Of a stretch of DNA of 64,000 nucleotides, positions 5,571 to 36,689 are shown in pieces (position 1 is the stretch's first letter; each line of letters starts with the position of its first letter). The notes beneath the pieces were generated by a model, which was not told the origin of the DNA, did no database searches, and was given only the letters and a program-made list of their open reading frames with translations. The translations under genes were made by a program, and so were the position numbers. Origin of the DNA: an uncultured Bacilli bacterium (GTDB lineage: Bacteria > Bacillota_I > Bacilli_A > RF39 > UBA660); NCBI GenBank assembly GCA_934097085.1, contig CAKONK010000002.1, positions 8,496 to 72,495 on the forward strand, written 5' to 3'.

Positions 5571-6236
5571 TTAATAGTTTTCTTGATTAATTAACTCAGA
5601 GATAACAATAATTTGTTTATTAGTGTTATGCCTACAAGTAATCATAGTAAGAGTAGTTTTGTCTAAATCTCTTGTAATAAGTGCTGTACCATTTTTTTCT
5701 ATATCATAAATATTAGTCACTTTATATGTATATTTAATTCCACCATAGTATATATATGAAATATCTCCAATTACTAATTTATCTAAATTTTTAAAATATG
5801 AAACTCTGCCTGATCCCGAATGACCTGCAAGAATGAAGTTTCCTTTAGAAATATTAGGCATATCAGATCCTTTTAATATTTCAACATTACGATTAACATT
5901 GTTATAATATTTTTCCTGTGATAAACCTCTTTTAATATTTATCTTAGGAATTTCTAATACTGCAATATAATTATAATTAGTTTTACTTATGTTTTTGTTT
6001 TCAACTTCAACAAATTTATTTTCCTGTGGAATATCTTCAACAACTTGTTCTTCTTCAAAAAATTCTTGTACATTATCTTTTTCAATTCTTTTTAAATTAT
6101 AATCTGAATAGATGTGGTATCCAATTATAAATAATCCAATTAAAATAAGAAAAGAGCCAATTACTAAAATTTGACTCTTGAAATCTTTATTCTTATTTTT
6201 TTCTTTTTTTATCATAAATAATAAATCCAACACCAC
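5571..6236 (-). CDS. Sortase-family transpeptidase
   Basis: N-terminal TM anchor, the motif ILAGHSGSG, and the catalytic-Cys motif TLTMITCRH (TLxTC). It lies immediately downstream of, and overlapping, the adhesin gene that carries a cell-wall sorting signal. Confidence 0.8.
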   Translation of the reverse strand: MVLDLLFMIKKEKNKNKDFKSQILVIGSFLILIGLFIIGYHIYSDYNLKRIEKDNVQEFFEEEQVVEDIPQENKFVEVENKNISKTNYNYIAVLEIPKINIKRGLSQEKYYNNVNRNVEILKGSDMPNISKGNFILAGHSGSGRVSYFKNLDKLVIGDISYIYYGGIKYTYKVTNIYDIEKNGTALITRDLDKTTLTMITCRHNTNKQIIVISELINQENY

Positions 6237-8691
6237 CAGTAATAAATACTAAACCAATAATATCAATTATATGAGAATCATTAACTCCTGTGTTAGGAAC
6301 TTCTATAACTTCATCTTTCATTATTGCTTTAACAATTTTACCATCTTCTGATATTTCAAACCACATCTTATCAGGATTTATTTTATAACCTTCAGGTGCT
6401 TGTTTTTCTATGATGTAATATTTACCAAGTGGTAGTTCATTAATAATAATTTTACCATTTGAATCAGTTCTACCAACATATACTAATTCATCATTTTCAG
6501 TATAAATTTCAATCAAAGTATTTGGTAATGTTTTATCATTTGAAAAATCTGATTTAGTAAATTCTAGAGTCCCTTTTGGAAGATGATTTTTTAATAAAGT
6601 TGTATAGTTTATAATTTTTGTATACTGATCTTTATACTTTAATTCAAAAGTATATTTAGTCTTGTCCAATATATGATTATTTATTGTTTCTATCTCTTGT
6701 AAATAATACTTACCTAAAAACAAATTTTCAACTTTAGCATATCCATTTTCATCTGTAATTAAGATTTTTATTAAAGTATCTTTCTTATATTTTAAATTAC
6801 CTAAAGAATCATAAATATCCTCATTAGCATATAATCCTATTTTTACATCCTTAAGATTAATTTCAGTATAAACATAACCTTTATTAGTTAATTCTACTTT
6901 TTCTCCAGTTTTAGTTAGTTCTAGGCTACCTTTAACTGCTTTGTTTTCAAATTTAACTTCATATAAAATTCCAAATTCGTCATCATTTACTAATTTAGAA
7001 TTTTCATCGATTGTAAATTCAACTGAATTTTTATTCCATAAATATCCATCTATTTTTTGATCTACTTCTTCTAAGAAATAAGTTCCACTTTCCAGTGGAT
7101 ATGGAGTAATTAATATCCCATTTTCATCAGTTTCAAAAACATCAATTGTTTTTGCACTAGGGTATGTTATTGTTTGTTTAACATATTTTTTAGTTTTTGC
7201 ATTAATAATTTTGAATTTAATACCTGATCTTTTTATAACATCACCAGTATCTTTATCTATTTTTATAACTTTAAGTCTTGCAGTTATTTCTGCATTTGCA
7301 ATTACTTTTTTTACAATTCCACCATCTTCTTTTACTTCAATGGTAAAATCTTTTGCTTTTTCATAACCCTTAGTTGAAGTCAATTGTTTTACAACATATT
7401 TACCATAAGGTAATGTTATATCAAAACTGCCTTGTGCATCAGTTATTAATGTTTTAACTAATTCATTTTTATTGTTGTATATTCCAAATTTTACACCAAT
7501 TTCAGGAGTCATAATCCCTGTCTTATTATCTGCATATACTTTTATAAATTGAAATGTTCTTTTTATTACATCTTCAAAAACTTGAACTTCAGGATGTAAT
7601 TGATCAAGAGTTACATCAAAGTAATATTTATTTGGATCTAATTTATACCCATTTGAAGCTTTTTCTTCTAATAAATAATATCTTCCCAATGATGGTAGAT
7701 AATCACTTTTAGTAGTACCATCATCATTTGTTGTAATAGTTCCTACTTTTGTACCATCTTCTTTATAAATACCATATATTGCTCCTTTTAATGTAGCTTC
7801 ACCTTGAGCTTTATTATTTTTAGTTTCAGAGTCTGTTTTGTGAATTTTTACATCTCCACCAAATACAGTTACTTTTTTTACAATTCTAATAGGATCAATG
7901 TCTCCTCTTTTAATTACATTTTGTGAACTAGTAGCATAATAAAGTTCTATTGGGCTTCCATATCTATTACCTGATTTTGTAAGTGTAATTGTTAATTGTC
8001 CAACATTAGTTGCTGTTAAAGATAGGTTATTACCATTAATCGTTGCACTACCATTATCTACATTAGATATTTGATAATTATTTAATACACCATTTGAATC
8101 ATTTATATTAATATTTTGTCCAACTACCATTGTATCTGGAAAATTAGTAAAATTTGGCGTTGTATTATGATTATTAACTAAATCCATTATAGAATTCATT
8201 TGTCCTGCTAAAATACTATCATTTCTATTTCCTTTTAGTGTATCAGTAAAAAAACTATCAACATTTGGATCTGCTAATTTCCATATTAGCATTTGTGCTG
8301 CTAAATAATATGTATCATCAGTATGATCATGTGTTGCATCTTTATACCCATATCCATAATAGGCAATTTTTGAAATCTTATTCCATGTATCTAAAGGTAT
8401 ATTAGCTACGGCTTGTATATCCTCTGTGGTTACCTCATAAGTTGCATCTGAATTAATTTTCGTCATCGGTTGCACACAATAAACAAAATGTCCATCGCTA
8501 GTTCTAACAATAAATTGTCCTTTAAACCACATTTTGCTTTCTCCTCGTGTATGCATAACATAAAATGGACCTCCAACATAAGGTCCTGCTTTTATTTGTC
8601 CTTCATAAGTACGAGCATCTACTTTATTTATCCCTAAAAATGCTCCCACAATTGTTATAACAAATAATAATATTTTACTTAATTTATTCAT
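6193..8691 (-). CDS. Sortase-anchored surface adhesin: putative thioester domain plus about 5 SpaA/Cna-B-type repeats
   Basis: Signal peptide MNKLSKILLFVITIVGAFLG. FVYCVQP and LAAQMLIWKL resemble the Cys and Gln motifs of thioester (TQxA-type) adhesin domains. Repeated modules are of the type GAIYGIYKEDGTKVGTITTNDDGTTKSDYLPSLGRYYLLEEKASNGYKLD. The C-terminus has EVPNTG, a hydrophobic segment and KKRKK (sorting signal). Confidence 0.8.
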   Translation of the reverse strand: MNKLSKILLFVITIVGAFLGINKVDARTYEGQIKAGPYVGGPFYVMHTRGESKMWFKGQFIVRTSDGHFVYCVQPMTKINSDATYEVTTEDIQAVANIPLDTWNKISKIAYYGYGYKDATHDHTDDTYYLAAQMLIWKLADPNVDSFFTDTLKGNRNDSILAGQMNSIMDLVNNHNTTPNFTNFPDTMVVGQNININDSNGVLNNYQISNVDNGSATINGNNLSLTATNVGQLTITLTKSGNRYGSPIELYYATSSQNVIKRGDIDPIRIVKKVTVFGGDVKIHKTDSETKNNKAQGEATLKGAIYGIYKEDGTKVGTITTNDDGTTKSDYLPSLGRYYLLEEKASNGYKLDPNKYYFDVTLDQLHPEVQVFEDVIKRTFQFIKVYADNKTGIMTPEIGVKFGIYNNKNELVKTLITDAQGSFDITLPYGKYVVKQLTSTKGYEKAKDFTIEVKEDGGIVKKVIANAEITARLKVIKIDKDTGDVIKRSGIKFKIINAKTKKYVKQTITYPSAKTIDVFETDENGILITPYPLESGTYFLEEVDQKIDGYLWNKNSVEFTIDENSKLVNDDEFGILYEVKFENKAVKGSLELTKTGEKVELTNKGYVYTEINLKDVKIGLYANEDIYDSLGNLKYKKDTLIKILITDENGYAKVENLFLGKYYLQEIETINNHILDKTKYTFELKYKDQYTKIINYTTLLKNHLPKGTLEFTKSDFSNDKTLPNTLIEIYTENDELVYVGRTDSNGKIIINELPLGKYYIIEKQAPEGYKINPDKMWFEISEDGKIVKAIMKDEVIEVPNTGVNDSHIIDIIGLVFITGGVGFIIYDKKRKK

Positions 8692-17616: not shown

Positions 17617-18395
17617 TCATATTTTTAGCTTTTGACCTATTTGTAATACATTTGTGGAAAGATTATTCTTTTTTTTAATACTATCAACTGTAGTATTATA
17701 TTTTCTTGCTATTGCCCATAGTGAATCGCCCTTTTGAACTGTATATATTACCTGAGACGATGGAACAATTAACTCCTGACCTATACTTAAAATATTGCTT
17801 TTTAAATTATTTAAGAATTTTAAATTATCTACTGTTGTTTCGTACATATTTGCAATTTTATATAATGTGTCGCCTTTTTGAACTTTATAAATATTTTGAT
17901 TATCTAGATTAACACTACTACCCTTTATTTTTAATCTTTGACCAATTGATAATAAATTTGATTTTAAGTTATTAATAGATTTAAGATCATTAACTGTCGT
18001 ATTATATTTTTTTGCTATACTCCATAGAGAATCGCCTTTTTGAACTATATAATAATCATTTTCTTCATTTGAACCCTTTAATGAATAAGGAACTCCAATA
18101 TAATTTGCAAGAGCCTTAACTACTGCTTCCGCCAAATCTTCCCAATTATTTTTAATAAGATTTACATCATCACCAGTACTATCTAAAAATCCATACTCTA
18201 CAATTAAAGTTTCATTATTAGGGGTATCCCTAAGTAAATAATAATAATCTTTTGAAGGATTACTTGGAAGTCTTCTTTGATAATATTTTCTAACATTTTG
18301 GCCTGATGATTCTAGTTCTTTTGCAATTAATTTAGATAGTGCATCACTATTACGAAGTGCATATATTACTTCGGCACCGTCGCCACCTGGTGAGT
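17617..18395 (-). pseudogene. C-terminal fragment of a split N-acetylmuramoyl-L-alanine amidase (second half of the Amidase_3 domain plus 3 LysM repeats)
   Basis: The frame is open from just after the TAA at 18396-18398. My translation is LNSPGGDGAEVIYALRNSDALSKLIAKELESSGQNVRKYYQRRLPSNPSKDYYYLLRDTPNNETLIVEYGFLDSTGDDVNLIKNNWEDLAEAVVKAL..., followed by three YxVQKGDSLWxIAKKYNTTV LysM repeats. No start codon or N-terminal half is present here. Confidence 0.85.
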
Positions 18396-18408
18396 TTAGT
18401 TACCACTG
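18380..18408. repeat. Left junction (att): 9-bp core TCGCCACCT plus terminal inverted repeat
   Basis: The core is at 18380-18388. GAGTTTAGTTACCACT at 18392-18407 matches 14 of 16 positions of the reverse complement of 26873-26888. Confidence 0.8.
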
Positions 18409-18989
18409 TTAATTAATTTATTTTTTGTTCCAGCTGTAGCAATCGTATAAGCTAAATATACCATTATAATTTGATATAAAATAATATTTACTATAACATT
18501 TATTATAGTTGGTATTTTACACCCTATAAACCCAAATAAACCAGCTAACGCTAAACAAAATATTCCACTCCAAAAATTAGTCCAAGTTCTTTTACCTTTT
18601 GATTTATCCTTTGTGAAAGGCAATATAATTCCTACTAGTACAAACATCCATGCACTAGATATAAATTTTATATTATTATTTTTATTAGAATCTTCAGTGA
18701 TAAAAATATTGTTTAAATAATTATTTTCTTTATCAGATATTTCCTCCAATATAGAATTGTATTCGTCCTTTAATTTATCATTTTTATCTAATTTTTCTTC
18801 TTCTATATTAGTTATCTTTTCTAATATTTCTATCCTATTAGAAACCCTTTTATAATACAGCAAATTAGCATCAATAATTGGATAAAATACAATTAATAGC
18901 AAAATTACAAGAATAAATATCCAAGCAATACGTTTATAATTTTTTGAATTTTTTAATACACCTAATAAAATCTCCTTCATTAAATTCAC
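18396..18989 (-). CDS. Membrane protein (N-terminal TM, coiled-coil, 3 C-terminal TM), unknown function
   Basis: 197-aa ORF and the last gene before the left junction. Its stop, TAA at 18396-18398, is what closes the amidase frame. Confidence 0.5.
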   Translation of the reverse strand: MNLMKEILLGVLKNSKNYKRIAWIFILVILLLIVFYPIIDANLLYYKRVSNRIEILEKITNIEEEKLDKNDKLKDEYNSILEEISDKENNYLNNIFITEDSNKNNNIKFISSAWMFVLVGIILPFTKDKSKGKRTWTNFWSGIFCLALAGLFGFIGCKIPTIINVIVNIILYQIIMVYLAYTIATAGTKNKLINSGN

Positions 18990-19021
18990 ATCCTTTAATT
19001 ATAAAATAGTCTTTTTCATAG

Positions 19022-19741
19022 TTACCATAACCAAGGTTGCTCAAAACAATCATAAGCATCATCTGGGGATACAGCCTGTCTAAGTTCTTTATATGATATT
19101 GCATATGGTGGATATACATTATTTTTTTCATAAAAGAAAGGTTGTTCCCAATAATTATGATTTTGATCTTCAAACAAAAATGCTAATGTAGAACTCAAAA
19201 GTGTATAAGGTTGCCTATTTTTTTCAAAATAAACTCTTATTTTAACACTTTCATCTACCCTTATTTTTTTATCATAACAATAACTATACCATACGCTTTC
19301 GTTATCAACTAAATTATCTAATAATTCATAATCACATAATATAATGCCTCTTTTATTTGTTGAAATTATATCTAAACAATCAATATCGCTTTTTCCGATA
19401 TTCTTTATAACAATATCTTTATAGTCATGATTATCTTTATTTTTTATACTTTTGGGATAAACTATTTTATATTTCTTTCCTTCATTATATTTAACATCGA
19501 AAGTTCCAATAAAGATTTCCATATCTATATTAAATTTACACGTAGTATTTTCAATAAACAATTCTGGCTTATTTTCAAATTGCTTTTGTCTTTCTTGCCT
19601 TTCAATTTCTTTTTTTCTTTGTTTTTCTTCCTTTTTATTAAAATACATCGTAGAAATAAAATTTAATATCCAACCAACAACAATACCTATTAAAGTAGCT
19701 AAAAAACTATTACTGTTTATATAGTCAAACAAAGATTTCAT
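19022..19741 (-). CDS. Membrane-anchored protein (N-terminal TM plus charged helix plus unknown globular domain)
   Basis: 239-aa ORF directly downstream of the recombinase gene. No motif recognised. Confidence 0.5.
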   Translation of the reverse strand: MKSLFDYINSNSFLATLIGIVVGWILNFISTMYFNKKEEKQRKKEIERQERQKQFENKPELFIENTTCKFNIDMEIFIGTFDVKYNEGKKYKIVYPKSIKNKDNHDYKDIVIKNIGKSDIDCLDIISTNKRGIILCDYELLDNLVDNESVWYSYCYDKKIRVDESVKIRVYFEKNRQPYTLLSSTLAFLFEDQNHNYWEQPFFYEKNNVYPPYAISYKELRQAVSPDDAYDCFEQPWLW

Positions 19742-19780
19742 AATATCATCTCCTTGACTATATATTATATCATTAAAAAT

Positions 19781-21436
19781 TTATTTTTTACCATTTTTTC
19801 CATAAGGATTTCTAATTAAATACCTATTTTCATACATAAAATTAATTTCTGGTATTACATCATATTTAAATATAATATTTATGTTTCTATTTTCATCAAT
19901 TACTATCTTATCTATTAAAGTATTTATTAGCTCTTTTTTAGTTTTTTTTAAATCTAATAGTTCTTTTATTTTCTTGGTATAATCTGGCATTATATTTGCT
20001 TTATTCTTTATGTTTTTCTTTTTTATTTTTTCTTCTTCAATTATATTATTAATCTTTTTTAATTTAGTTTCTGATTCAACAGATAATTCTTTATATAATT
20101 CTGTCGAAATTATATTATTACATCTATCACTGTATAAAGTAGATAATTTATTCATAATTTGTTCTTTTTCTTTTAATAAATCATTTATTTTTTTATCTAT
20201 ATCTTCTGTTTCTTTATAAACATTTTTTTGTACTTCTTTATTTAATTCTCCTATATCTAGTTCTTTTATAAATTTTGATACTGAATTATTAAATTGCTCT
20301 AATATTTGTTCTTCTAAATAATCATAAGGATAAAAGTGTGAACTACATCTTCCTCTTTTTGGATCTCTAGAATATCTATTACAATTAATAGACCAATAAT
20401 TAAGTTTCTTTCTATAATAAACAGATAATCTATTACCACACTCTTTACAAAATATTTTTCCTTCTAAAATTCTTTTTGGTCTTTCTGTTTTTAAACTATA
20501 ATTTCTAGTTTTTCTTTTTCCTAAAGAATTAACATATTTAAAAGTTTCTTTATCTACTAATGGTTCATGAGTATCTTCAACTATTACCCATAAACTTTCA
20601 TCTAAAGTTATTTTCTTCTTTGATTTATAATTTACTTTTGTTTGAGTATGTTGAACCATATCTCCAGTATAAATTCTATTACTTAAAATTTTCTTTACTG
20701 TTGATATATTCCAACTATCTCTATCAATCAATCTAGAAGAATAATTTGTTTTCTTATATCCTGCCGGTGTGGGTACATTCATATTATTTAATCTTGTTGC
20801 TATTTCTGTTGGTCCTATTCCTTCTGCTCTCCACTTAAATATATTTTTTACAATTGGTGCAGTTTCTGGATTAGGTATTAAATGTCCTTTATCCAAAGGA
20901 TCTCTCATATATCCATAACTAGGCCCACTTCCTATAAATTTACCATTCTTTCTTTTATCATTTAATACATTTCTTATCTTAATAGAATTTTGTTTACTAT
21001 AATAATCATTACAAGCAATTATAAATGTTGAAGAATCATTACTAGCTTGATTTTTAAAACTATCATATGATTCTAATATTGATATAAATCTTATATTATT
21101 TTCAGGAAAAAATGTTTCAATATAATATCCTGTCATAACATGATCTCTACCAAATCTAGATAAATCTTTAACTACTACACAATTTATCTTTTTTTGTTTT
21201 ATATCCTCTAACATTTTTTGAAATCCTGGTCTATCAAAATTAGTACCAGAATATCCATCGTCTACATATTCTCCACATAGAATAAAATTATTATTTTTAA
21301 CATAACTTCTTAGTAATTCTTTTTGATTAATAACACTTTCACTATCAGATTCATATTTTTTATCTTTATCTTCTTGAGATAATCTTATATAGATTCCAGC
21401 ATTGAAATCTATTTCAGTTAAGTAAGTATTATACAT
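19781..21436 (-). CDS. Large serine recombinase (resolvase catalytic domain, recombinase domain, zinc ribbon, coiled-coil)
   Basis: AGIYIRLSQEDKD (catalytic Ser context), DDGYSGTNFDRPGFQKML, VVVKDLSRFGRD, the zinc-ribbon cysteines CKECGNRL...CNRYSRDPKRGRCSSH, and a long K/E-rich coiled-coil C-terminal region. Total 551 aa. Confidence 0.92.
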   Translation of the reverse strand: MYNTYLTEIDFNAGIYIRLSQEDKDKKYESDSESVINQKELLRSYVKNNNFILCGEYVDDGYSGTNFDRPGFQKMLEDIKQKKINCVVVKDLSRFGRDHVMTGYYIETFFPENNIRFISILESYDSFKNQASNDSSTFIIACNDYYSKQNSIKIRNVLNDKRKNGKFIGSGPSYGYMRDPLDKGHLIPNPETAPIVKNIFKWRAEGIGPTEIATRLNNMNVPTPAGYKKTNYSSRLIDRDSWNISTVKKILSNRIYTGDMVQHTQTKVNYKSKKKITLDESLWVIVEDTHEPLVDKETFKYVNSLGKRKTRNYSLKTERPKRILEGKIFCKECGNRLSVYYRKKLNYWSINCNRYSRDPKRGRCSSHFYPYDYLEEQILEQFNNSVSKFIKELDIGELNKEVQKNVYKETEDIDKKINDLLKEKEQIMNKLSTLYSDRCNNIISTELYKELSVESETKLKKINNIIEEEKIKKKNIKNKANIMPDYTKKIKELLDLKKTKKELINTLIDKIVIDENRNINIIFKYDVIPEINFMYENRYLIRNPYGKNGKK

Positions 21437-21701
21437 TCAATCCTCCAATCTTCTTACTTGACTGAGTATTAAGACAATTTAATAATACCGCATTATAAAA
21501 AAAATTACAGCGCATTATTTTCTTTTTCTATCTCTTCGATAAGATATTTTAAAATAAGATCTTTAAAAGTTATATTATTTTCATTCATAACAACACCTAC
21601 TTAAAGTTATGTTGTTTTTAGTTGTTTTATTATTATTTAAATTCATTTTATCCCCCTTTTATTCAATAAAAAATCCCTATATTATTTTTATATAAGGATT
21701 A

Positions 21702-21908
21702 TTATTCATTTATAACTGAATCAATATTTTTTATAATATATTCCATTAATAAAGTTTCCATTATAGATTGTATTGTAATTTTTTTATTTTCTAAAACTCT
21801 TTTAAGAGCCATTTTTGTATGATCATCAATTCTAAATTTAACTTGATTATTCTTTGCTAAAGCCATTTTTTCACTCTCCTTTCTAAAAATTGGTACTATT
21901 GTATGCAC
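21702..21908 (-). CDS. Small ribbon-helix-helix-like DNA-binding protein (candidate element regulator)
   Basis: The probable start is at MALAKNNQVKFRIDDHTKMALKRVLENKKITIQSIMETLLMEYI, a beta-strand plus two helices. RBS AGGAGAG lies upstream. A terminator hairpin lies just downstream (about 21665-21700). Confidence 0.4.
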   Translation of the reverse strand: MHTIVPIFRKESEKMALAKNNQVKFRIDDHTKMALKRVLENKKITIQSIMETLLMEYIIKNIDSVINE

Positions 21909-21974
21909 ATTAAATTTTTAAACACTATTTTAGGAAAAGGATTTTGATAAAGCAGGATAAACCTGTTTACAAAC

Positions 21975-21993
21975 AACTCACCAGTGGTGAGTT
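21975..21993. repeat. Perfect 19-bp palindrome built from two copies of the element-end (att arm) motif
   Basis: The palindrome is AACTCACCA-G-TGGTGAGTT. TGGTGAGTTT (21985-21994) is identical to 18388-18397 at the left junction. The half-site AAACTCACC corresponds to the right-end arm AAACTC(GC)CACC (26883-26894). Confidence 0.7.
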
Positions 21994-22049
21994 TTACCTT
22001 ATTTTATAAGCATTTATAAAATTAAGTAGTGTTTACACTTTTCATATTT

Positions 22050-22109
22050 GTTATACAATTGTATACTTTTGATTCCTTATATTATAAGGGGCGTTATACA
22101 ACTGTACAC
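22050..22109. promoter_or_regulatory. Two 17-bp operator-like repeats
   Basis: GTTATACAATTGTATAC (22050-22066; the core TATACAATTGTATA is a perfect palindrome) and GTTATACAACTGTACAC (22093-22109), with starts 43 bp apart. Further TTGTAT-containing repeats are AAATGTTGTAT at 22331-22341 and 22354-22364. Confidence 0.5.
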
Positions 22110-22504
22110 ATTTTTTAAAATAACTAACTATGTTTTTTGGTACTAAAAATATAAAATTATAATTAAAACTTAGTACCAAACTTTTTATATTGAATTTAAA
22201 GGGGGATTTTAGAATATGAAAAAAGCATTGACCTTTTCTGTAAGGCCAATGCTATAAATACATATAATTGCATTATTATTTCATATTCTACTATATTGTA
22301 TCACATGATTGTCGAAAATCAATTAGTAATAAATGTTGTATTAATCTTGAGAAAAATGTTGTATAAAATCTCTATAAAACCTTATAAATACTGCATTTAT
22401 ATAAATAGATACTTTAATAGATTCTATGTTATTGACAGGTATATGTAATTTTTAATTACTAAATTTTTACCAAAATAATACTGGAACTATAACAATTTTT
22501 TATA

Positions 22505-22897
22505 TTATTTATAATTCCATATTCCCAACTGGCCTTTTACTTTTATTGGAGTAATGGGTTTCACATCTTCCAAAACCCTTGCATATCTTCCAACTTCATA
22601 ATGACCTGCAATAAAATTATTTTTGTTTTTTTCTTTCTCTTTTTTTATAAACTATTCTGTCATATAAATACAATCAACTAAATTACACTTACATATTATA
22701 TGTCCATAATTAAGTTCATCTTCATTATATAGTTCAGATAATCCTTTTCTTTCTTTTACTTCTTTTCTTATTTTTGCAACTCCAGCTTGTATGTATAATT
22801 CTCCACGATAATTAGTTTTCCAACTTCTTGTTTCAATATATTTAACTTTATTTTTTATCAATGTAGCAAAGGGTTCTTTAATTGTTAATACTTTCAT
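22505..22897 (-). pseudogene. ASCH-domain protein gene interrupted by one in-frame TAG
   Basis: The track ORF (81 aa) ends ...CIYMTE at a TAG. The same frame continues FIKKEKEKNKNNFIAGHYEVGRYARVLEDVKPITPIKVKGQLGIWNYK and then TAA (22505-22507). This is the expected ASCH C-terminus. TAG is a genuine stop elsewhere in the window (for example at the end of rplB). Confidence 0.65.
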
Positions 22898-22914
22898 AAA
22901 CTATATTACTCATT

Positions 22915-24054
22915 TTAATCTAAAACTGCTTGTTTTAAGTCTGAAGCCAATTTATTCATAGAGTCATTTAATTTATCAATATCATGCTTTGACATAAAAT
23001 ATTCTTCACCATCATTACTACTTCTATCTAAAATATCAAATGTAATTCTATAAACATGATCACTTAATAAATTATTGTTTTGCCACATACAATCTTTTTT
23101 AGCTTTAATATAAAAATTATTTTTATTAATCTTTAATATATCAATATCTTCTGGTGATGAAACATAAAAACCTGTTGTTCTTACTTTTTTACTATTTTTA
23201 TATGTAATACCTTCTTCATCTACCTTTTCATACCAGTTAGAATTAAAATAATATAATCCATTTTCATTTTTGATACAATAATCCAGCAAATTACCACGAT
23301 ACGCATCTTTTAAAGCATTATTAGTTTGATATTCTTCACATGCTTTTATATATTCAATGCTAACACGTGACTCACATTTAACAGCCTTTTTCATAAAATC
23401 TTCTGCTGTCGTAACTACTAACAATTTTACAGAACCTAATGTTTTATCTGATAACTCAACTTTATGAGGTTGCGCTATATTACCTTCATCGTTTGAAATT
23501 ATAAATATTTTATCATCCATATGTAAATCTAAGAAAATCTGTTTTGAAAATAACGCTTTATTTAATAGTGGTATTAAGTAATCTACTCTAAAATTTGCCT
23601 CAGCCATTACTAAGTATTTTTGATCATAACCTTGATTTCTTAAAGAAATCATATATTGATTTTTTTTGAATGTCTTAACCTCTATTTGTGGTCTTTTTTC
23701 TATTGGAAACCAGTGATTATCAAACTTTACGAATGGAATAGCTCTCTTTTTATATTTTATTCCAATAACATCTGGAGCAATCCCCGCAGTTTTAGGATTA
23801 TAATCATAATAATCAGTAATTACTTCAACTTTTTCACCTTTAAAAACTTGAGGTAAAATAATTTTATTAAATAAAACACTTTCTGGAATTATATTTATCC
23901 ATCTATCAAAAATTCCACCCATATAATCTGCTTTAGATGTTAAAGCACCTTGCATAGGTCTATCACCTTGCATTTGTGTTAAATTAGCAATAAAATATAC
24001 TGCCTTTTTAGCATCATTAATACTTATTTTTACTTCATTCATACTAACCTCCAA
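22915..24054 (-). CDS. Candidate type II restriction endonuclease (PD-(D/E)xK-like motif)
   Basis: 379 aa, starting 3 nt after the C5-methyltransferase stop. IAPDVIGIKY ... QIEVKTFKK fits PD...ExK. No other family is recognised. Confidence 0.5.
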   Translation of the reverse strand: MEVSMNEVKISINDAKKAVYFIANLTQMQGDRPMQGALTSKADYMGGIFDRWINIIPESVLFNKIILPQVFKGEKVEVITDYYDYNPKTAGIAPDVIGIKYKKRAIPFVKFDNHWFPIEKRPQIEVKTFKKNQYMISLRNQGYDQKYLVMAEANFRVDYLIPLLNKALFSKQIFLDLHMDDKIFIISNDEGNIAQPHKVELSDKTLGSVKLLVVTTAEDFMKKAVKCESRVSIEYIKACEEYQTNNALKDAYRGNLLDYCIKNENGLYYFNSNWYEKVDEEGITYKNSKKVRTTGFYVSSPEDIDILKINKNNFYIKAKKDCMWQNNNLLSDHVYRITFDILDRSSNDGEEYFMSKHDIDKLNDSMNKLASDLKQAVLD

Positions 24055-24056
24055 AA

Positions 24057-25217
24057 TTATTCAGACATATCTGATTTTTCTAATAGTTCTAACAAGTCAG
24101 TAGCAAGCATTTGTATTACTGGAACAGAAACTGCATTTCCTGCTTGTTTATATAGTTGAGAATCGGGATATGGCCTTCCATTTATAACCGTAGGTAATTT
24201 GTATCCATTATCAATAGGAAAGCCCTGTAATTTAAAAGTTTCTTTTGGTGTTAACTTTCTGATACCATCATTTACTTTTATCAAAGGCACATTATGACCA
24301 CCAGTACCCATATTTGCTGTAAGTGTGGGGCAAACACCACTTTGGTTTTTTCTTACATACATACCTCTTCTACATTGATAAAATTCGTACATTTCATCAA
24401 TTTGTGTATTTAAATTTATTTTTTCTTTTTTATTAGATTTTTCAAATTCTTCATCTGACATAAAATAGTTTGGATATTTTTCTTTTGTATAATAATACTT
24501 AGTTGCATTTTCTTTTGTCAAATTATAATCAATAACCTTTTTTATATCTTTAATTCTTGATGCTTTATCTTTCTTCTTTATCCTACTTTCAATATCCTTA
24601 AATATTTCAAAATTTTTTATATCATTTTCATTTAATAATCCTATAATGTATATTCTTTCTCTATTTTGTGGTACATCAGTATAGTCCATAGTATTTAATA
24701 CTTTTTCAAAAACTGTATATCCACAATCTTCTAGTTTTTGTTTTATATGTACATAAGTTTTTTTATTATCATGAGCCTGCAAATTTTTCACATTTTCAAG
24801 AAATAATACACGTGGCTTATGAAATTTTTCACCCAGTTGTTCAATTAAATCTATAATATTTAAAAATAAATTTCCTCTATCATCTTCAAACCCTTTGCGC
24901 TCACCAGCAATACTGAATGCTTGACAAGGAAAACCACCATTCAAAATATCTATCGGTTCACTTAATATTTTATCATGTAATTTTTGATAATATTTTTGTT
25001 GTGCTTTATCTGTTGCTTGTTCTGGATGAAGTACTAATTTTATATCACCTTCTAGTAATTGATGTGAAAAATTAGTTCTATATGTTTCACATGCATATTC
25101 ATCTATTTCATTTGCCCAAAGCAATTTATATTTAGATTTTTTCGTCTTTGCATTTTTAAAACCTAAGCATATTCCACCAACGCCTGCAAATAAACTTCCA
25201 ACCTTATATTCAACCAT
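24057..25217 (-). CDS. dcm: DNA (cytosine-5)-methyltransferase
   Basis: The canonical C5-MTase motifs are present: I GSLFAGVGG, IV GGFPCQAFSIAG, VI FLENVKNL, VIII QNRERIYIIG, X AGNAVSVPV. Confidence 0.92.
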   Translation of the reverse strand: MVEYKVGSLFAGVGGICLGFKNAKTKKSKYKLLWANEIDEYACETYRTNFSHQLLEGDIKLVLHPEQATDKAQQKYYQKLHDKILSEPIDILNGGFPCQAFSIAGERKGFEDDRGNLFLNIIDLIEQLGEKFHKPRVLFLENVKNLQAHDNKKTYVHIKQKLEDCGYTVFEKVLNTMDYTDVPQNRERIYIIGLLNENDIKNFEIFKDIESRIKKKDKASRIKDIKKVIDYNLTKENATKYYYTKEKYPNYFMSDEEFEKSNKKEKINLNTQIDEMYEFYQCRRGMYVRKNQSGVCPTLTANMGTGGHNVPLIKVNDGIRKLTPKETFKLQGFPIDNGYKLPTVINGRPYPDSQLYKQAGNAVSVPVIQMLATDLLELLEKSDMSE

Positions 25218-25359
25218 ATGTACCTCCTTTCTAATTTTTATGTGTTAATATAATTATAACATAAAAACTAACTATTTTTTCTCTAATGTGATTTTTATAT
25301 TCAAAAATCATAAAAAAAGAAAGAAATCAATCTTCCTTTTTTCATATAATACTTATAAT

Positions 25360-26124
25360 TTAGAATATAGTATTACATTTTAAAATAATTTCTTCAGCTT
25401 TTAACATCCCTTTGGGAGAAATTGTACATTTCTCATTATCATATTCTATATATTTTTCATTATGCATTTGTTTTAATAACTTCTTAAATGTAGTTTTATT
25501 AGAATATTCTACATTTTTTATAAGTTCATCAACCACCATAGTATCATTAATATAAAGAATAATAAGAATTTTATCACAACATTTCATATTATTATCTAAT
25601 ATCCTAAATTTATCTTCAACACACCAAAGCAAATCAATCTCTTTATTAATTATTGAATCTATATTTTTTTGACATTCGGTCATATCTTCTTTTGAGAAAA
25701 CCCTATATAATTCTGCCAAAATCCATTTTGCACTTGATAATAATAAATTGGCATCCATTTTATTAGGAATAATATCGTTTTTGTGAATTGCTCCTCTTTT
25801 ATTTCTAATACAATACATAGCATATAATACCCTAGGAATTATTACTCTAATATTTTCTTCTACATTTTGAACATTTTCCCATTTAATTAAAATTGTTTCA
25901 TTAAAATTATTCAATTTATTTTTTAATGGTGTATAACTACCCGTTATCATATATTCAATAATTCTGTAAACAGTTTCATTAAATTGTCCCATTTCATTAA
26001 TAAAATACTGCCAATTTCCTTTAGAATATTCCTTTAAGCCTTTACAATAAGAATCAAATAATCCATTTGATAAATCGAGTGGAATTTCATTATCAAAAGT
26101 GTTCTTTATATTAGATACATTCAT
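25360..26124 (-). CDS. Unknown protein with a HEPN-like RNxxxxxH motif and a C-terminal winged-helix-like region
   Basis: 254 aa. CIRNKRGAIHKND resembles the Rx4-6H motif of HEPN/Abi_C-type domains. The C-terminal ...LIKNVEYSNKTTFKKLLKQMHNEKYIEYDNEKCTISPKGML looks like a wHTH. Its start lies 2 nt after the upstream gene's stop. Confidence 0.4.
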   Translation of the reverse strand: MNVSNIKNTFDNEIPLDLSNGLFDSYCKGLKEYSKGNWQYFINEMGQFNETVYRIIEYMITGSYTPLKNKLNNFNETILIKWENVQNVEENIRVIIPRVLYAMYCIRNKRGAIHKNDIIPNKMDANLLLSSAKWILAELYRVFSKEDMTECQKNIDSIINKEIDLLWCVEDKFRILDNNMKCCDKILIILYINDTMVVDELIKNVEYSNKTTFKKLLKQMHNEKYIEYDNEKCTISPKGMLKAEEIILKCNTIF

Positions 26125-26125
26125 A

Positions 26126-26716
26126 TTAAACAGATTTGCAATATTCTATAAGCATATTTTGGGCTAAAGAAAATTTAGAAGCCATTAAAATGATTTTGTT
26201 ACTTTCATATTTTAACCACTCGCAATTTTTATAAGATCTTGTAGCATTATTTGAAGAAATATTTAATTGTTTTAATACAGCAATGACATCTTTTTGCATT
26301 ACATCTCCTAAATTAGCGCTTTTTTTCCATAAAGCTAAAATTGTCCCTACTATTACTACATCAGGCAGTGCTCTTTTATTTGCAAACTGTTTTTTATAAT
26401 TTTCCCAAGTTTTCATATCTAAATGAATAAATGGTGTTTCCATAGTCGGATTAAGAGCATCTTTAATTAAATCCACTTCTATATCAATTTCTTTCGCAAA
26501 TTTTTCAACCGGAGATAAAATAGCCTTGCTCTCGTTATCTTTATTTTCGCTTTTATTTATAGCATTCAAAGGTTGAGAGTCATTGCACTTAATACTACTT
26601 AATACACTTTGCCATAATATTAAATTATTACTAGTTGCCACGACCTTATCATCTACATATAAAACTGTTTTAAAAATAGGCTCGTTTTCATTCATTTCTA
26701 TACACCTCCCTAACAT
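26126..26716 (-). CDS. Unknown protein, first gene of the two-gene cassette
   Basis: 196-aa ORF. The likely true start is MNENEPIF, with RBS GGGAGGTG. No motif recognised. Confidence 0.45.
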   Translation of the reverse strand: MLGRCIEMNENEPIFKTVLYVDDKVVATSNNLILWQSVLSSIKCNDSQPLNAINKSENKDNESKAILSPVEKFAKEIDIEVDLIKDALNPTMETPFIHLDMKTWENYKKQFANKRALPDVVIVGTILALWKKSANLGDVMQKDVIAVLKQLNISSNNATRSYKNCEWLKYESNKIILMASKFSLAQNMLIEYCKSV

Positions 26717-26740
26717 TTTAAAATAAACGATTGCAACTAT

Positions 26741-26794
26741 ATTATTACATAGTAAAAGTTTTTTGTCAACCTTAAAGGTTATTTTTGTAACCTT
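26741..26794 (-). promoter_or_regulatory. Promoter with overlapping AACCTT/AAGGTT inverted-repeat operator
   Basis: On the minus strand, TTGACA (26769-26764) is followed after a 16-17-nt spacer by TAATAAT. Half-sites are AACCTT (26768-26773), AAGGTTA (26775-26781) and TAACCTT (26788-26794). Confidence 0.5.
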
Positions 26795-26861
26795 TTTTGT
26801 TTATTTTTTAAACATTAGCGTTGGTTTTGCGCTTTTATAATTTTAATATCCTAATACCCAA

Positions 26862-27161
26862 TCAAATTATGTAATGGTAAGTAAACTCGCCACCTCCTGC
26901 ATTTAGGTGATTAGATAAAACAATTACATCGTTACCTTTACCAAAGAAACTTTGTGCTCTTTTTGGTCTAGAAGTTTGATCTAAAAGTTCATCTGATGTC
27001 CTTGTCATTGCATTTTCTATTCCTAATTCATCCAATCGTTTTTTTATATAGTTACTAATTTTTAATGTATATTCTTTTTCTAAAATTCCATTACCTGAAG
27101 AGCCACCATCAACACCGCCGTGTCCCGCATCAATTACCACCTTTTTAGCCATATTTATCAC
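26862..27161 (-). pseudogene. N-terminal fragment of the split N-acetylmuramoyl-L-alanine amidase (first half of Amidase_3)
   Basis: MAKKVVIDAGHGGVDGGSSGNGILEKEYTLKISNYIKKRLDELGIENAMTRTSDE...VIVLSNHLNAGGG, followed by 7 element-derived codons (EFTYHYII) and TGA. Confidence 0.85.
26872..26895. repeat. Right junction (att): terminal inverted repeat plus 9-bp core TCGCCACCT
   Basis: The core is at 26887-26895. The reverse complement of 26873-26888 is GAGTTTACTTACCATT. Confidence 0.8.
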
Positions 27162-35035: not shown

Positions 35036-35965
35036 TTAATCCATCCTCTCAATCTCTTTATAATTTATTGGGAACCCCATTGCATCTAATACTTTATCAA
35101 CATCAATTGAATGAAGTTTTCCAGATAAAATATCTAGTTCATAATCTATTTCTTTTATAAATAAATTAAAATCATCCGCATTTAAAATTCTTTTTAAAAT
35201 AATAATTAGAGCAAATAAATCATTTTTACCATAAATGTATTCTCCATCCATTTTAGGAATATTTAAAAGTTTATGATATACTGTATTGTTTATAACTATC
35301 TGCGTTTTATTATTATAACAAATATCTTCGTGTGCACATAGATTTCGATAATTAGCAAGTATTGGTAAATAACTTTGGAAACTATCAATGTCTATATTAA
35401 ATATATCCGCAATTTCTCTTTTATCTTCATTTTGAAGTACTGTATAAAGTTCACCAACTATTCCAAATGATAATACTTTAACAACAACCCAAAGCGGTAT
35501 ATAACCATAATTATCAATGAAATGACTTGTTGCTGAATGTTGTTTACCATTTATACTAATTTGTCTTTTCATTTTATGAATTAAATCATTAATTTGTCTA
35601 GTTTTAGTATTATCGTGAACAAAGTTATTTTTATTCAAATAATTTTTTTCTTTATAGCCGTGATTCTTACTCATAACATAGGCCATTATGCTTTTTAAGT
35701 TATTTTCAAATACTAAAATATTCTTAAATAAAATATTTCTTAACTGTCTATCAAAAATAAACATTGCATATAGTTCCTCAAAAGTGGTACCTTTATTAAA
35801 TATACGGTCAGAATATGACTTAACAAATAAAAATCTATACCCTGTCACAAAGAAATAATTTTCTCTAAGAAGTATTGATTTAGCCTTTTCAATATCATTT
35901 ATAGTAAGACCTTTATCAATTAAAATATTTATCTGTTCATCTAATGTTTTAAATGTTTTCTCCAC
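35036..35965 (-). CDS. Abi_2-family (AbiD/AbiF-like) abortive-infection protein with a HEPN motif
   Basis: N-terminal LDEQINILIDKGLTI...LLRENYFFVTGYRF and the C-terminal RNLCAHE (Rx4H) motif are characteristic of AbiD/F. Its stop lies 2 nt before the htrA start. Confidence 0.75.
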   Translation of the reverse strand: MEKTFKTLDEQINILIDKGLTINDIEKAKSILLRENYFFVTGYRFLFVKSYSDRIFNKGTTFEELYAMFIFDRQLRNILFKNILVFENNLKSIMAYVMSKNHGYKEKNYLNKNNFVHDNTKTRQINDLIHKMKRQISINGKQHSATSHFIDNYGYIPLWVVVKVLSFGIVGELYTVLQNEDKREIADIFNIDIDSFQSYLPILANYRNLCAHEDICYNNKTQIVINNTVYHKLLNIPKMDGEYIYGKNDLFALIIILKRILNADDFNLFIKEIDYELDILSGKLHSIDVDKVLDAMGFPINYKEIERMD

Positions 35966-36038: not shown

Positions 36039-36689
36039 TTAAGAAAAATATTTAATTACACCTTTAGATATTAAATCCGCTACCCTTTTTTGGTATTCAT
36101 TTGTAACAAGTTTTTGTCTTTCTTCATAATTTGATAAAAATCCACATTCTATTAATAAACCATTAACTTTTAACTTTGAATACATATATGTGTCTTTTGG
36201 AATAGTTTTAATTTTACGATTACTACTTAAACCTTTATTTAAAACATCTTGCATAATATTTGCAAAATAAATATTTTTACCATTATAAAACACCTGCGGT
36301 CCATAGTATTTAAAGTCACTTAAATAATTTAAATGAATACTTAAATAAATATCTGCTTTAGAATTATTTATTAAGTTTATTCGATTATCAAAATCACTTT
36401 TCTTTCGATATATTGCATTCGGAGTTGATAAATCATAGTCACCATCTCTTGTCATAAAAATAGTGGCTCCATAACTTTCTAATTTTTCTTTTAAATAAAG
36501 GCTTATATTTAAATTAATATCTTTTTCTAGGATATTTCCATAGGAAGTACCAGGATCCAAAAATCCGTGACCAGGATCAATTACTATAACTCTTCCCACT
36601 AAAAAAAGATTGTCTTTCCCAAAAACCGATGATAAAAGAAAAATAGATATTATAAAAATTATTAATGAGTAATAAATATATTTTTTCAT
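36039..36689 (-). CDS. cwlD: Germination-specific N-acetylmuramoyl-L-alanine amidase CwlD
   Basis: N-terminal TM, then VIVIDPGHGFLDPG, EKDINLNISLYLKEKLE, SIHLN and LIECGFLSN. The size (216 aa) and the position near rpsI match cwlD synteny in Bacilli. Confidence 0.8.
   Translation of the reverse strand: MKKYIYYSLIIFIISIFLLSSVFGKDNLFLVGRVIVIDPGHGFLDPGTSYGNILEKDINLNISLYLKEKLESYGATIFMTRDGDYDLSTPNAIYRKKSDFDNRINLINNSKADIYLSIHLNYLSDFKYYGPQVFYNGKNIYFANIMQDVLNKGLSSNRKIKTIPKDTYMYSKLKVNGLLIECGFLSNYEERQKLVTNEYQKRVADLISKGVIKYFS

What the first reader, a model, noticed from the sequence alone, without database searches (positions are those of the whole stretch)
25360..26794. Two-gene cassette of unknown function on the element, with a HEPN-like motif and wHTH and its own operator-bearing promoter
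Genes 26126..26716 (196 aa) and 25360..26124 (254 aa) are separated by 1 nt and match no family I can name.

The 254-aa protein carries CIRNKRGAIHKND. This fits the Rx4-6H catalytic signature of HEPN/Abi_C-type RNase domains. For comparison, the bona fide Abi_2 protein at 35036..35965 has RNLCAHE. Its C-terminal 70 aa or so look like a winged helix.

The pair has its own promoter, TTGACA at 26769-26764, overlapped by three AACCTT/AAGGTT half-sites (26768-26794). A hairpin and T-run separate it from the R-M operon downstream.

A tightly coupled pair of small proteins, one with a HEPN-like motif, sitting next to an R-M system on a mobile element is the typical context of toxin-antitoxin or abortive-infection defence modules. 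I cannot assign it to a described system.
Basis: inference. Interest (0 to 1): 0.7.

Follow-up and report, generated by a model that had tools for sequence, protein, structure and literature searches.

The report
Unnamed HEPN RNase toxin–partner gene pair
Two tightly coupled genes at the end of a small mobile element encode a predicted RNA-cutting toxin (a HEPN domain fused to a DNA-binding winged helix) and a winged-helix partner; the pair recurs across bacteria and archaea, often beside restriction systems, and is in none of the family libraries searched, which makes it a candidate new phage-defence or addiction module.

Summary
Both ORFs, the 1-nt gap, the RNKRGAIH motif, the C-terminal winged helix, the promoter, the three half-sites and the hairpin are all present. 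One correction: gene A most likely starts at 26695 (189 aa), not 26716.

- **B (254 aa):** it founds a large unnamed family (more than 1,600 clusters at 90% identity, Firmicutes to archaea). E50, R107, K109, R110, H114, D124, W134 and E138 are invariant in 225 homologues. AlphaFold models place Rx6H at the end of helix 3, an acidic residue in helix 2 and an insert between helices 2 and 3, as published for HEPN. Foldseek ranks HEPN proteins first, but not significantly, and no profile comparison reaches significance.
- **A:** it belongs to a fast-diverging partner superfamily (short N-terminal module, variable linker, winged-helix-like C-terminus). A partner of this superfamily abuts B in 56 of 66 genomic loci.
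- **Mobility and context:** the pair with its promoter (25328..26888) moves as a unit. It lies beside a type II R-M here, beside a type III-A retron elsewhere, and inside type I R-M operons in three genomes.
- **Reading:** a TA-like, abortive-infection or addiction HEPN module. The function is inferred, not shown.

The parts
26126..26695 (-). Gene A, the partner or putative antitoxin. It is 189 aa from the probable true start; the mechanical ORF runs to 26716. It has an N-terminal conserved segment, a variable linker and a winged-helix-like C-terminal region.
   Evidence: ORF. Homologues start at M8 and an SD precedes that ATG. The family has 201 representatives at 50% identity. hhalign to the main partner family gives E = 1.5e-4 over 169 columns.
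25360..26124 (-). Gene B, 254 aa: an N-terminal HEPN-like domain plus a C-terminal winged helix. This is the putative RNase toxin or effector.
   Evidence: ORF. Family size. AF2 pLDDT 88.5.
25645..26124 (-). HEPN-like helical domain of B (aa 1-160). Core helices are 16-35, 38-61, 90-107 and 120-143, with an insert at 62-89.
   Evidence: AF2 domain model pLDDT 90.8, pTM 0.87. Foldseek top hits are AbiV, TT1696, TM0613, AF0298, ST0689 and Csm6, none significant. The layout matches the published HEPN description.
25783..25806 (-). [quoted passage not shown]
   Evidence: Sequence. R107, K109, R110 and H114 are invariant and N108 is kept in 224 of 225 homologues.
25975..25977 (-). Codon of E50, the invariant acidic residue in helix 2 of the HEPN-like domain.
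   Evidence: The role of the helix-2 acidic residue comes from PMC3710099.
25372..25632 (-). Winged helix-turn-helix domain of B (aa about 165-251).
   Evidence: Foldseek hits to MarR, ArsR, AspA and PagR-type wHTH proteins, probability 1.0, TMt up to 0.77. PADLOC CARF3 C-terminus and a PHROG regulator. hhalign to the C-terminal domain of the main partner family gives E = 5e-5.
26741..26769 (-). Sigma-70-type promoter TTGACA-17-(TG)AATAAT.
   Evidence: The -35 and -10 elements are kept in L007 and L009-L012.
26768..26795 (.). Operator-like repeat: inverted repeat AAAGGTTA-N6-TAACCTTT plus a third AAGGTT half-site that overlaps the -35.
   Evidence: The core is kept in L007, L009 and L010 and replaced by an unrelated direct repeat in L011 and L012.
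26705..26710 (-). Shine-Dalgarno GGGAGG for the ATG at 26695.
25310..25345 (-). Hairpin with a U-run after B, an intrinsic-terminator-like site.
25328..26888 (-). The cassette as a transferable unit: element end, promoter, A and B.
   Evidence: 96.6% identity over 1565 nt to L007 and L008, where both flanks differ.
18380..26894 (.). The 8.5-kb serine-recombinase element that carries the cassette, inserted in an Amidase_3-LysM gene. The range runs from one copy of the 8-bp direct repeat to the other (18380-87 and 26887-94). Inverted terminal repeats lie at 18392-18409 and 26871-26888.
22915..25217 (-). Neighbouring type II R-M: C5 cytosine methyltransferase at 24057..25217 and a 379-aa candidate endonuclease at 22915..24054. 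This is context, not part of the pair.
   Evidence: The MTase is confirmed. The 379-aa protein matches no family.

Best explanation
A and B form a bicistronic, translationally coupled, toxin-antitoxin-like module.

- B is a HEPN-fold RNase. Its Rx6H motif (R107...H114) and E50 would form the active site, probably across a dimer as in other HEPN enzymes. It is fused to a winged helix.
- A is a partner protein with a short conserved N-terminal module, a variable and probably flexible linker, and a winged-helix-like C-terminal domain of the same type as that of B.
- In resting cells A is proposed to bind B and keep the RNase silent, while the complex represses its own promoter through the inverted repeat at the -35.
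- B would be freed when A is lost or displaced. That could happen on phage infection, on failure of the neighbouring restriction system, or on loss of the mobile element. Free B would cut cellular RNA and stop growth, giving abortive infection or post-segregational killing.

What is shown: the genes, their coupling, the conserved pairing, the invariant motif, the predicted folds, the mobility of the cassette, and the defence or mobile neighbours.

What is inferred: RNase activity, toxicity, neutralisation by A, autoregulation and the trigger.
For: - Motif: E50, P97, R107, K109, R110, H114, D124, W134 and E138 are invariant in 225 distinct homologues, and N108 is kept in 224.
- Fold: the AF2 models are confident (pLDDT 88.5 and 90.8, pTM 0.87). 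[quoted passage not shown] This is the layout published for HEPN (PMC3710099).
- Fold search: Foldseek on the N-domain ranks HEPN proteins first. These are AbiV 9bj5/9bj7, TT1696 1ufb (probability 0.90), TM0613 1o3u (TMq 0.52, TMt 0.67), AF0298, ST0689 and Csm6.
- Winged helix: the C-terminal domain matches MarR/ArsR-type wHTH structures.
- Pairing: 56 of 66 genomic loci from many phyla have an HMM-detected partner next to B, mostly overlapping it by 4-14 nt. Most of the rest have an unassigned abutting ORF.
- Partner homology: the C-terminal domain of the main partner family resembles the wHTH of B (E = 5e-5). The A of this window is a divergent branch of the partner superfamily (E = 1.5e-4).
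- A second effector: the A type of this window elsewhere precedes a different protein of about 242 aa. That protein has a wHTH and a DUF4145-like (HEPN) domain with RLGDxSAH.
- Mobility: the cassette moves as a unit between a type II R-M context and a type III-A retron context.
- R-M linkage: in L013, L014 and L016 the pair lies between hsdS and hsdR of a type I R-M operon.
- Other neighbours include AbiLi, AriA-like ATPases, resolvases and transposases.
- Regulation: the promoter with a non-random repeat cluster fits an autoregulated TA operon.
- Precedent: in the type IX retron a winged-helix protein alone neutralises a HEPN toxin (bioRxiv 10.64898/2026.07.14.738597).
Against: - No statistically significant sequence or structure match ties B to HEPN. 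There is no Pfam or PDB sequence hit. Foldseek E is 0.3 or worse. hhalign E is 0.13-0.28 against a DUF4145-like effector, HsdR DUF4145 domains and the Abi_2 protein of this window.
- The link between this window's A and the main partner family is only moderate (probability 52%), and A could not be modelled.
- Many neighbours of the pair in other genomes are housekeeping genes.
- B is essentially absent from the plasmid and phage collections.
- The operator-like repeat is shared only by close relatives.
- The motif counts are partly biased. The genomic loci were retrieved with the pattern IRNKRG..H, and the protein searches are seeded by shared 5-residue words.
- Toxicity, neutralisation and defence are untested.
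Confidence: 0.55

Rival explanations
1. A restriction-linked guard of the PrrC/RloC type. B is a latent HEPN RNase held silent by the adjacent R-M enzymes rather than by A alone, with A as adaptor or sensor. It fires when a phage inhibits restriction.
For: The pair lies next to a type II R-M in the window, L009 and L010. It is embedded between hsdS and hsdR in L013, L014 and L016. HEPN genes inside R-M operons are a described theme (PMC3710099).
Against: The same cassette (96.6% identical) occurs without any R-M next to it in L007 and L008. Most of the 54 loci surveyed have no R-M gene as immediate neighbour. In the window the pair has its own promoter and terminator. B has no ABC-ATPase domain like that of PrrC.
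Confidence: 0.15
2. A pure addiction module. The pair stabilises the serine-recombinase element by post-segregational killing and plays no part in phage defence.
For: It is the first cargo at the end of an 8.5-kb integrative element. The element end and the pair are shared with a second element-like context that carries different cargo. The operon architecture is of the type II TA kind.
Against: Most homologous pairs are not next to recombinases; Resolvase was found in 2 of 102 immediate neighbours. They are nearly absent from plasmids. Recurrent placement in R-M operons and beside a retron points to defence islands.
Confidence: 0.13
3. A non-toxic regulatory pair. Two winged-helix DNA-binding proteins control transcription or excision of the element, and the N-terminal helical domain of B is a sensor or dimerisation domain whose RNKRGxxH motif is not catalytic.
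For: Both proteins carry winged-helix-type domains. An operator-like repeat sits on the promoter. No HEPN match is significant.
Against: A plain dimerisation or sensor domain would not be expected to keep nine polar or charged residues absolutely invariant from Firmicutes to archaea, in exactly the HEPN active-site layout. The partner family also pairs with a second effector whose best Pfam hit is DUF4145/HEPN. The pair occurs in many genomes with no mobile-element genes nearby.
Confidence: 0.12

Closest known systems
Type IX retron effectors (Retron-Kva2 HEPN toxin plus WH protein; bioRxiv 10.64898/2026.07.14.738597)
   Same: A HEPN nuclease toxin is paired with a separate winged-helix protein that wraps it and can neutralise it alone. 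The outcome is abortive infection through cleavage of rRNA and tRNA.
   Different: The Kva2 HEPN lacks Rx4-6H and uses H64 and R122, whereas B has a canonical Rx6H and its own fused wHTH. The Kva2 WH protein has two alpha-beta HEPN-binding domains, which no sequence comparison detected in A. The retron needs an RT and msDNA, and the window's element has no RT. The RT next to the cassette in L007 is a complete type III-A retron with its own PRTase effector. Gene order is also reversed.
AbiV (Lactococcus HEPN RNase; PDB 9bj5, 9bj6 and 9bj7; bioRxiv 10.1101/2024.05.05.592566)
   Same: It is the best-ranked structural neighbour of the N-domain of B. It is a small HEPN RNase with Rx4-6H in a two-component antiphage system.
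   Different: The AbiV antitoxin is an RNA, making it a type III TA, whereas here the partner is a conserved protein. AbiV has no wHTH. The Foldseek match is not significant (E = 0.31, TM about 0.37), and PADLOC found no Abi model matching B.
HEPN-MNT type II/VII toxin-antitoxin systems
   Same: A two-gene operon with a HEPN RNase toxin. Solved minimal HEPN proteins of this kind (TT1696, TM0613, AF0298, ST0689) are among the best fold hits.
   Different: The partner there is a minimal nucleotidyltransferase, whereas A matches no NTase family. B is twice as long and carries a wHTH.
PrrC/RloC-type HEPN anticodon nucleases in R-M loci
   Same: A HEPN gene sits inside or beside an R-M operon. In L013, L014 and L016 the pair occupies the slot between hsdS and hsdR. 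The theme is described in PMC3710099.
   Different: PrrC and RloC are single proteins with an N-terminal ABC-ATPase, which B lacks. Here there is an obligate second protein. The R-M linkage is facultative.
DUF4145-type HEPN domains (PF13643)
   Same: The motif has the same shape: hIR(K/N)xG(N)xxxH in the HsdR DUF4145 domains against IRNKRGxxH in B. The alternative effector that follows this window's type of A has DUF4145 as its only or best Pfam hit.
   Different: B itself gives no DUF4145 hit. hhalign is not significant (E = 0.13-0.28).

Membership tests
HEPN superfamily | Four-helix up-and-down core, often with an insert between helices 2 and 3 | tested here: met
   The AF2 domain model (pLDDT 90.8, pTM 0.87) has helices at 16-35, 38-61, 90-107 and 120-143 and an insert at 62-89. 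The criterion comes from PMC3710099. This is a prediction, not an experimental structure.
HEPN superfamily | [quoted passage not shown] | tested here: met
   R107 is the last residue of helix 90-107 and H114 lies in the loop. R and H are invariant, and N108 is kept in 224 of 225 homologues.
HEPN superfamily | Conserved acidic residue in helix 2 | tested here: met
   E50 lies in helix 38-61 and is invariant in 225 of 225 homologues.
HEPN superfamily | Significant sequence or profile similarity to a recognised HEPN family | tested here: not met
   There is no Pfam, NCBIfam or PADLOC hit. Abi_C reaches E = 0.1 in 2 of 27 members. The PDB profile search finds nothing relevant. hhalign E is 0.13-0.28 against a DUF4145-like effector, HsdR DUF4145 domains and Abi_2.
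HEPN superfamily | Significant structural similarity to solved HEPN domains | tested here: inconclusive
   HEPN proteins dominate the top of the Foldseek list and have the highest probabilities (1ufb 0.90, 1o3u 0.84 with TMt 0.67). All E-values are 0.3 or worse.
HEPN superfamily | Metal-independent RNase activity that depends on R and H | not testable with these tools
   This needs biochemistry.
Type II toxin-antitoxin module | Two small, adjacent, co-oriented and translationally coupled genes that are conserved as a pair | tested here: met
   The gap is 1 nt here. Overlaps of 4-14 nt occur in most of the 66 loci, and a partner is detected in 56 of 66.
Type II toxin-antitoxin module | Autoregulated promoter with an operator bound by the antitoxin or the complex | tested here: inconclusive
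   A non-random inverted repeat overlaps the -35. It is kept in close relatives only. Binding was not tested.
Type II toxin-antitoxin module | The toxin arrests growth and the antitoxin neutralises it by direct binding | not testable with these tools
   This needs expression and interaction assays.
HEPN-MNT TA | The partner is a minimal nucleotidyltransferase | tested here: not met
   A and the main partner family match no NTase or any other family.
Type IX retron (HEPN + WH + RT + ncRNA) | A retron RT and msr/msd in the same operon | tested here: not met
   The Pfam-scanned ORFs of the 18380..26894 element include no RT. RVT_1 is not among the recurrent neighbour families. The RT beside L007 is of type III-A and has its own PRTase.
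PrrC/RloC anticodon nucleases | An N-terminal ABC-ATPase fused to HEPN | tested here: not met
   B has no ATPase domain.
Abi_2 (AbiD/AbiF) and other named Abi or PADLOC systems | A match to the family model | tested here: not met
   PADLOC and Pfam give no Abi or defence model for A, B or the main partner family. The true Abi_2 protein of this window scores 142 bits by contrast.

The most novel reading that the evidence does not exclude
The pair represents a widespread, undescribed class of defence module built from interchangeable parts. One part is a fast-evolving winged-helix partner superfamily (A, sometimes duplicated as A-B-A'). The other is either of two unrelated-looking HEPN effectors, HEPN-wHTH (B) or wHTH-DUF4145-like (B2). 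The matching winged helices would sense invader nucleic acid, or the state of a neighbouring restriction system, and release the RNase. This would be a protein-only counterpart of the retron IX HEPN-WH effector pair.
Probability: 0.3. Interest if true: 0.7.

Novelty: new variant of a known kind. Interest (0 to 1): 0.55.

Why it matters
HEPN RNases are recurrent executioners in TA, Abi, CRISPR and retron immunity. This family has more than 1,600 sequence clusters, and its members carry no functional name or Pfam domain in the hit lists returned. It spans bacteria and archaea and repeatedly sits in R-M operons and next to other defence systems.

If it is confirmed, it would add a new protein-neutralised HEPN system with a distinctive double-winged-helix logic. 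It would also show modular swapping between partner and effector families, and it would give annotation to thousands of hypothetical genes.

The compact 1.56-kb cassette carries its own promoter, so it can be tested directly.

Tried and rejected
- Family libraries gave nothing for A, B, the main partner family or the downstream paralogue A' (Pfam, NCBIfam, PADLOC, PHROGs).
- A PDB sequence-profile search gave only chance hits.
- Foldseek with the full-length model returned only winged-helix proteins, so the N-domain had to be modelled on its own.
- Foldseek against viral structures found nothing.
- phmmer and a profile of the main partner family did not link this window's A to that family. Only after enlarging the A family through the representative search did hhalign give a moderate link.
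- hhalign of the N-domain of B against the DUF4145-like effector, HsdR DUF4145 domains and Abi_2 was not significant.
- A retron-effector reading was rejected. The cassette's homology starts after the RT gene, and that RT is a complete type III-A retron.
- An Rfam scan of the element found no RNA family.
- Base composition does not mark the element.
- B is absent from the phage collection and has one partial hit in plasmids, a Natronomonas hypothetical protein.
- Two literature searches and four papers did not reveal a description of this pair.
Full report
**1. The observation**

A is 26126..26716(-), 196 aa. B is 25360..26124(-), 254 aa. A single base separates them. Neither matches any Pfam, NCBIfam, PADLOC or PHROGs family. 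The only signals are weak winged-helix hits to residues 184-243 of B.

The other features also hold:
- The promoter TTGACA-17-AATAAT, with an upstream TG, at 26769..26741 is the best sigma-70-like site in the region, matching 11 of 12 positions.
- The three AACCTT/AAGGTT half-sites are real. Two of them form the 8-nt inverted repeat AAAGGTTA-N6-TAACCTTT.
- A cluster of three such sites within 27 bp occurs once in the window. It appeared in 1 of 300 Markov simulations.
- A 15-bp A/U-rich hairpin that ends in a U-run follows B (z = -3.7).

One correction is needed. All homologues of A start at the position of M8, and a GGGAGG Shine-Dalgarno sequence precedes that ATG. A therefore most likely starts at 26695 and is 189 aa long.

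**2. What B is**

B founds a large, unnamed family. A single-sequence search found 96 clusters. A profile of the N-terminal domain found 1,636 clusters at 90% identity. The listed members are about 250 aa long, have no Pfam domain, and are called hypothetical wherever a source gives a name. A scan of one genome per species found 66 loci. They come from Firmicutes, Proteobacteria, Bacteroidota, Chloroflexota, Acidobacteriota, Cyanobacteria, Saccharibacteria and archaea.

In 225 distinct homologues, E50, P97, R107, K109, R110, H114, D124, W134 and E138 never vary, and N108 varies once. There is a caveat. The genomic loci were retrieved with the pattern IRNKRG..H, and the protein searches are seeded by shared words. 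This inflates the conservation of the motif, but much less that of the distant positions such as E50, D124, W134 and E138.

AlphaFold2 models are confident: pLDDT 88.5 for the whole protein, and pLDDT 90.8 with pTM 0.87 for residues 1-163. The C-terminal 90 residues form a winged helix, with MarR, ArsR, AspA and PagR-type proteins as hits at probability 1.0.

The N-terminal domain has long helices at 16-35, 38-61, 90-107 and 120-143, with an insert at 62-89. The reference analysis of HEPN (PMC3710099) states three things. [quoted passage not shown] A conserved acidic residue, when present, is in helix 2. Inserts are common between helices 2 and 3. B fits all three: R107 ends helix 3, H114 is in the loop, and E50 is in helix 2.

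Foldseek with the domain model ranks HEPN proteins first. These are AbiV 9bj5/9bj7, TT1696 1ufb at probability 0.90, TM0613 1o3u at TMq 0.52 and TMt 0.67, AF0298, ST0689 and Csm6. No E-value is better than 0.3.

Profile comparisons with a DUF4145-like effector, HsdR DUF4145 domains and this window's Abi_2 protein align the motifs but are not significant, with E = 0.13-0.28. I therefore rate the HEPN assignment at about 0.75. It is based on topology and an invariant active-site-like constellation, not on a significant match.

**3. What A is, and whether the pair is real**

In the 66 loci, an ORF of 140-220 aa abuts or overlaps the start of B in about 55. Thirty-nine of these form one family. 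That family has a conserved N-terminal segment (..IRINL..gEfEIsGSEeFV..), a variable linker and a C-terminal domain. The C-terminal domain resembles the winged helix of B itself (hhalign E = 5e-5 over 84 columns).

A paralogue of this partner, A', lies directly downstream of B in 17 loci, giving A-B-A' or B-A' arrangements (hhalign E = 2.5e-13). With HMMs, 56 of 66 loci have a detected partner next to B, and most of the rest have an unassigned abutting ORF. The pairing is therefore conserved across phyla.

This window's A belongs to a different sequence family, which an exhaustive search showed to be large: 201 representatives at 50% identity. Its link to the main partner family is collinear over the whole protein but only moderately supported (hhalign E = 1.5e-4, probability 52%). 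Smaller profiles gave nothing.

Elsewhere this window-type A precedes a different protein of about 242 aa in 4 of 6 members looked up. That protein has an N-terminal winged helix and a C-terminal domain with RLGDxSAH, which is an Rx6H. Its only or best Pfam hit is DUF4145, a HEPN family, at E = 0.012-0.018, below the curated cut-off. Partner and effector families thus appear to be exchangeable, and both effector types carry an Rx6H.

**4. Context and mobility**

The pair lies at the end of an 8.5-kb insertion that splits an Amidase_3-LysM gene. The evidence is as follows:
- An 8-bp direct repeat GGTGGCGA lies at both junctions.
- Inverted terminal repeats GAGTTTA(G/C)TTACCA lie just inside them.
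- A large serine recombinase is encoded at 19781..21436.
- Joining the flanks restores a 345-aa ORF that aligns with the intact paralogue across the junction.

The other cargo is a C5 methyltransferase and a 379-aa candidate endonuclease.

The stretch 25328..26888 comprises the element end, the promoter, A and B. It is 96.6% identical to L007 and L008. There the flanks are different, and the upstream neighbour is a complete type III-A retron (PRTase plus RT) in an island that also holds SLFN-helicase, MazG-like and DUF3800 genes. In L013, L014 and L016 the pair sits between hsdS and hsdR of a type I R-M operon.

Among 102 immediate neighbours in 54 loci there are type I R-M subunits, AbiLi, AriA-like ATPases, resolvases and transposases. 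There are also many housekeeping genes. B is absent from the phage collection and nearly absent from plasmids.

**5. The most likely mechanism**

I propose a protein-neutralised HEPN toxin module. A holds the B RNase inactive, and the complex represses its own promoter. Loss or displacement of A frees B, which cuts cellular RNA and arrests growth. The trigger could be infection, failure of restriction, or loss of the element. Only the anatomy and the conservation are shown here; the activity, the neutralisation and the trigger are inferred.

The nearest experimental analogue is the type IX retron. There a winged-helix protein wraps a HEPN toxin and can neutralise it alone. That system needs an RT and msDNA, and its HEPN lacks Rx4-6H. 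AbiV is the nearest fold neighbour, but its antitoxin is an RNA. HEPN-MNT systems use a nucleotidyltransferase partner, which A is not. PrrC and RloC share the placement inside R-M operons but are ATPase fusions.

Three rivals remain open:
- an R-M-dependent guard;
- an addiction-only module for the element;
- a non-toxic regulator pair.

**6. Verdict**

The pair is best filed as a new variant of a known kind: a HEPN-based TA or Abi module with an unnamed HEPN-wHTH effector family and an unnamed winged-helix partner superfamily. Interest is moderate at 0.55. Finding another HEPN module is not surprising in principle. This one is widespread, unannotated, compact and directly testable, and its partner and effector families appear to be swapped in a modular way.

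Noticed in passing
window 18380..26894 (flanks 17617..18387 and 26887..27161): An 8.5-kb element with a large serine recombinase (19781..21436) splits an Amidase_3-LysM cell-wall hydrolase gene. It has 8-bp direct repeats GGTGGCGA and inverted ends GAGTTTA(G/C)TTACCA. Joining the flanks restores a 345-aa ORF.
   Followed up: yes
L007 6805..9206 and L008: A complete type III-A retron (PRTase-CE plus RT) lies directly upstream of the 96.6%-identical copy of the cassette. It sits in an island with SLFN-type helicase, MazG-like and DUF3800 genes.
   Followed up: partly
L013 2413..10069, L014 2709..10275, L016 765..8115: The A-B pair is embedded between hsdS and hsdR of type I R-M operons. The HsdR proteins carry their own N-terminal DUF4145 (HEPN) domain.
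   Followed up: partly
e.g. L036 6768..7292, L063 2004..2522, L068 853..1377: A paralogue of the partner (A') lies directly downstream of B in 17 loci. Some loci have A-B-A' and some only B-A'.
   Followed up: partly
L075 4001..5347, L078 2322..3707, L081 725..1778: This window's type of A precedes a different protein of about 242 aa. That protein has an N-terminal wHTH and a C-terminal DUF4145-like domain with RLGDxSAH, which points to modular exchange of effectors.
   Followed up: partly
L073 4318..4740 and 5920..6417: The B gene is split into two pieces about 1.2 kb apart in a Gammaproteobacteria MAG, possibly by an insertion.
   Followed up: no
window 35036..35965: A genuine Abi_2 (AbiD/F-like) protein (Pfam 142 bits) with RNLCAH at residue 207. 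It lies next to an intact Amidase_3 paralogue (36039..36689) and an HtrA-like protease.
   Followed up: partly
window 22652..22897: An 81-aa ASCH-domain ORF downstream of the candidate endonuclease. It covers profile positions 1-56 of 103, so it may be truncated.
   Followed up: no
window 22915..24054: The 379-aa protein beside the C5 methyltransferase matches no family in Pfam, NCBIfam, PADLOC or PHROGs. Its reading as the cognate restriction endonuclease rests on position only.
   Followed up: no
P0330, P0235, P0308 (homologues of A): Some members of the A family are fused to one or two extra C-terminal winged-helix-like repeats (307-438 aa).
   Followed up: no
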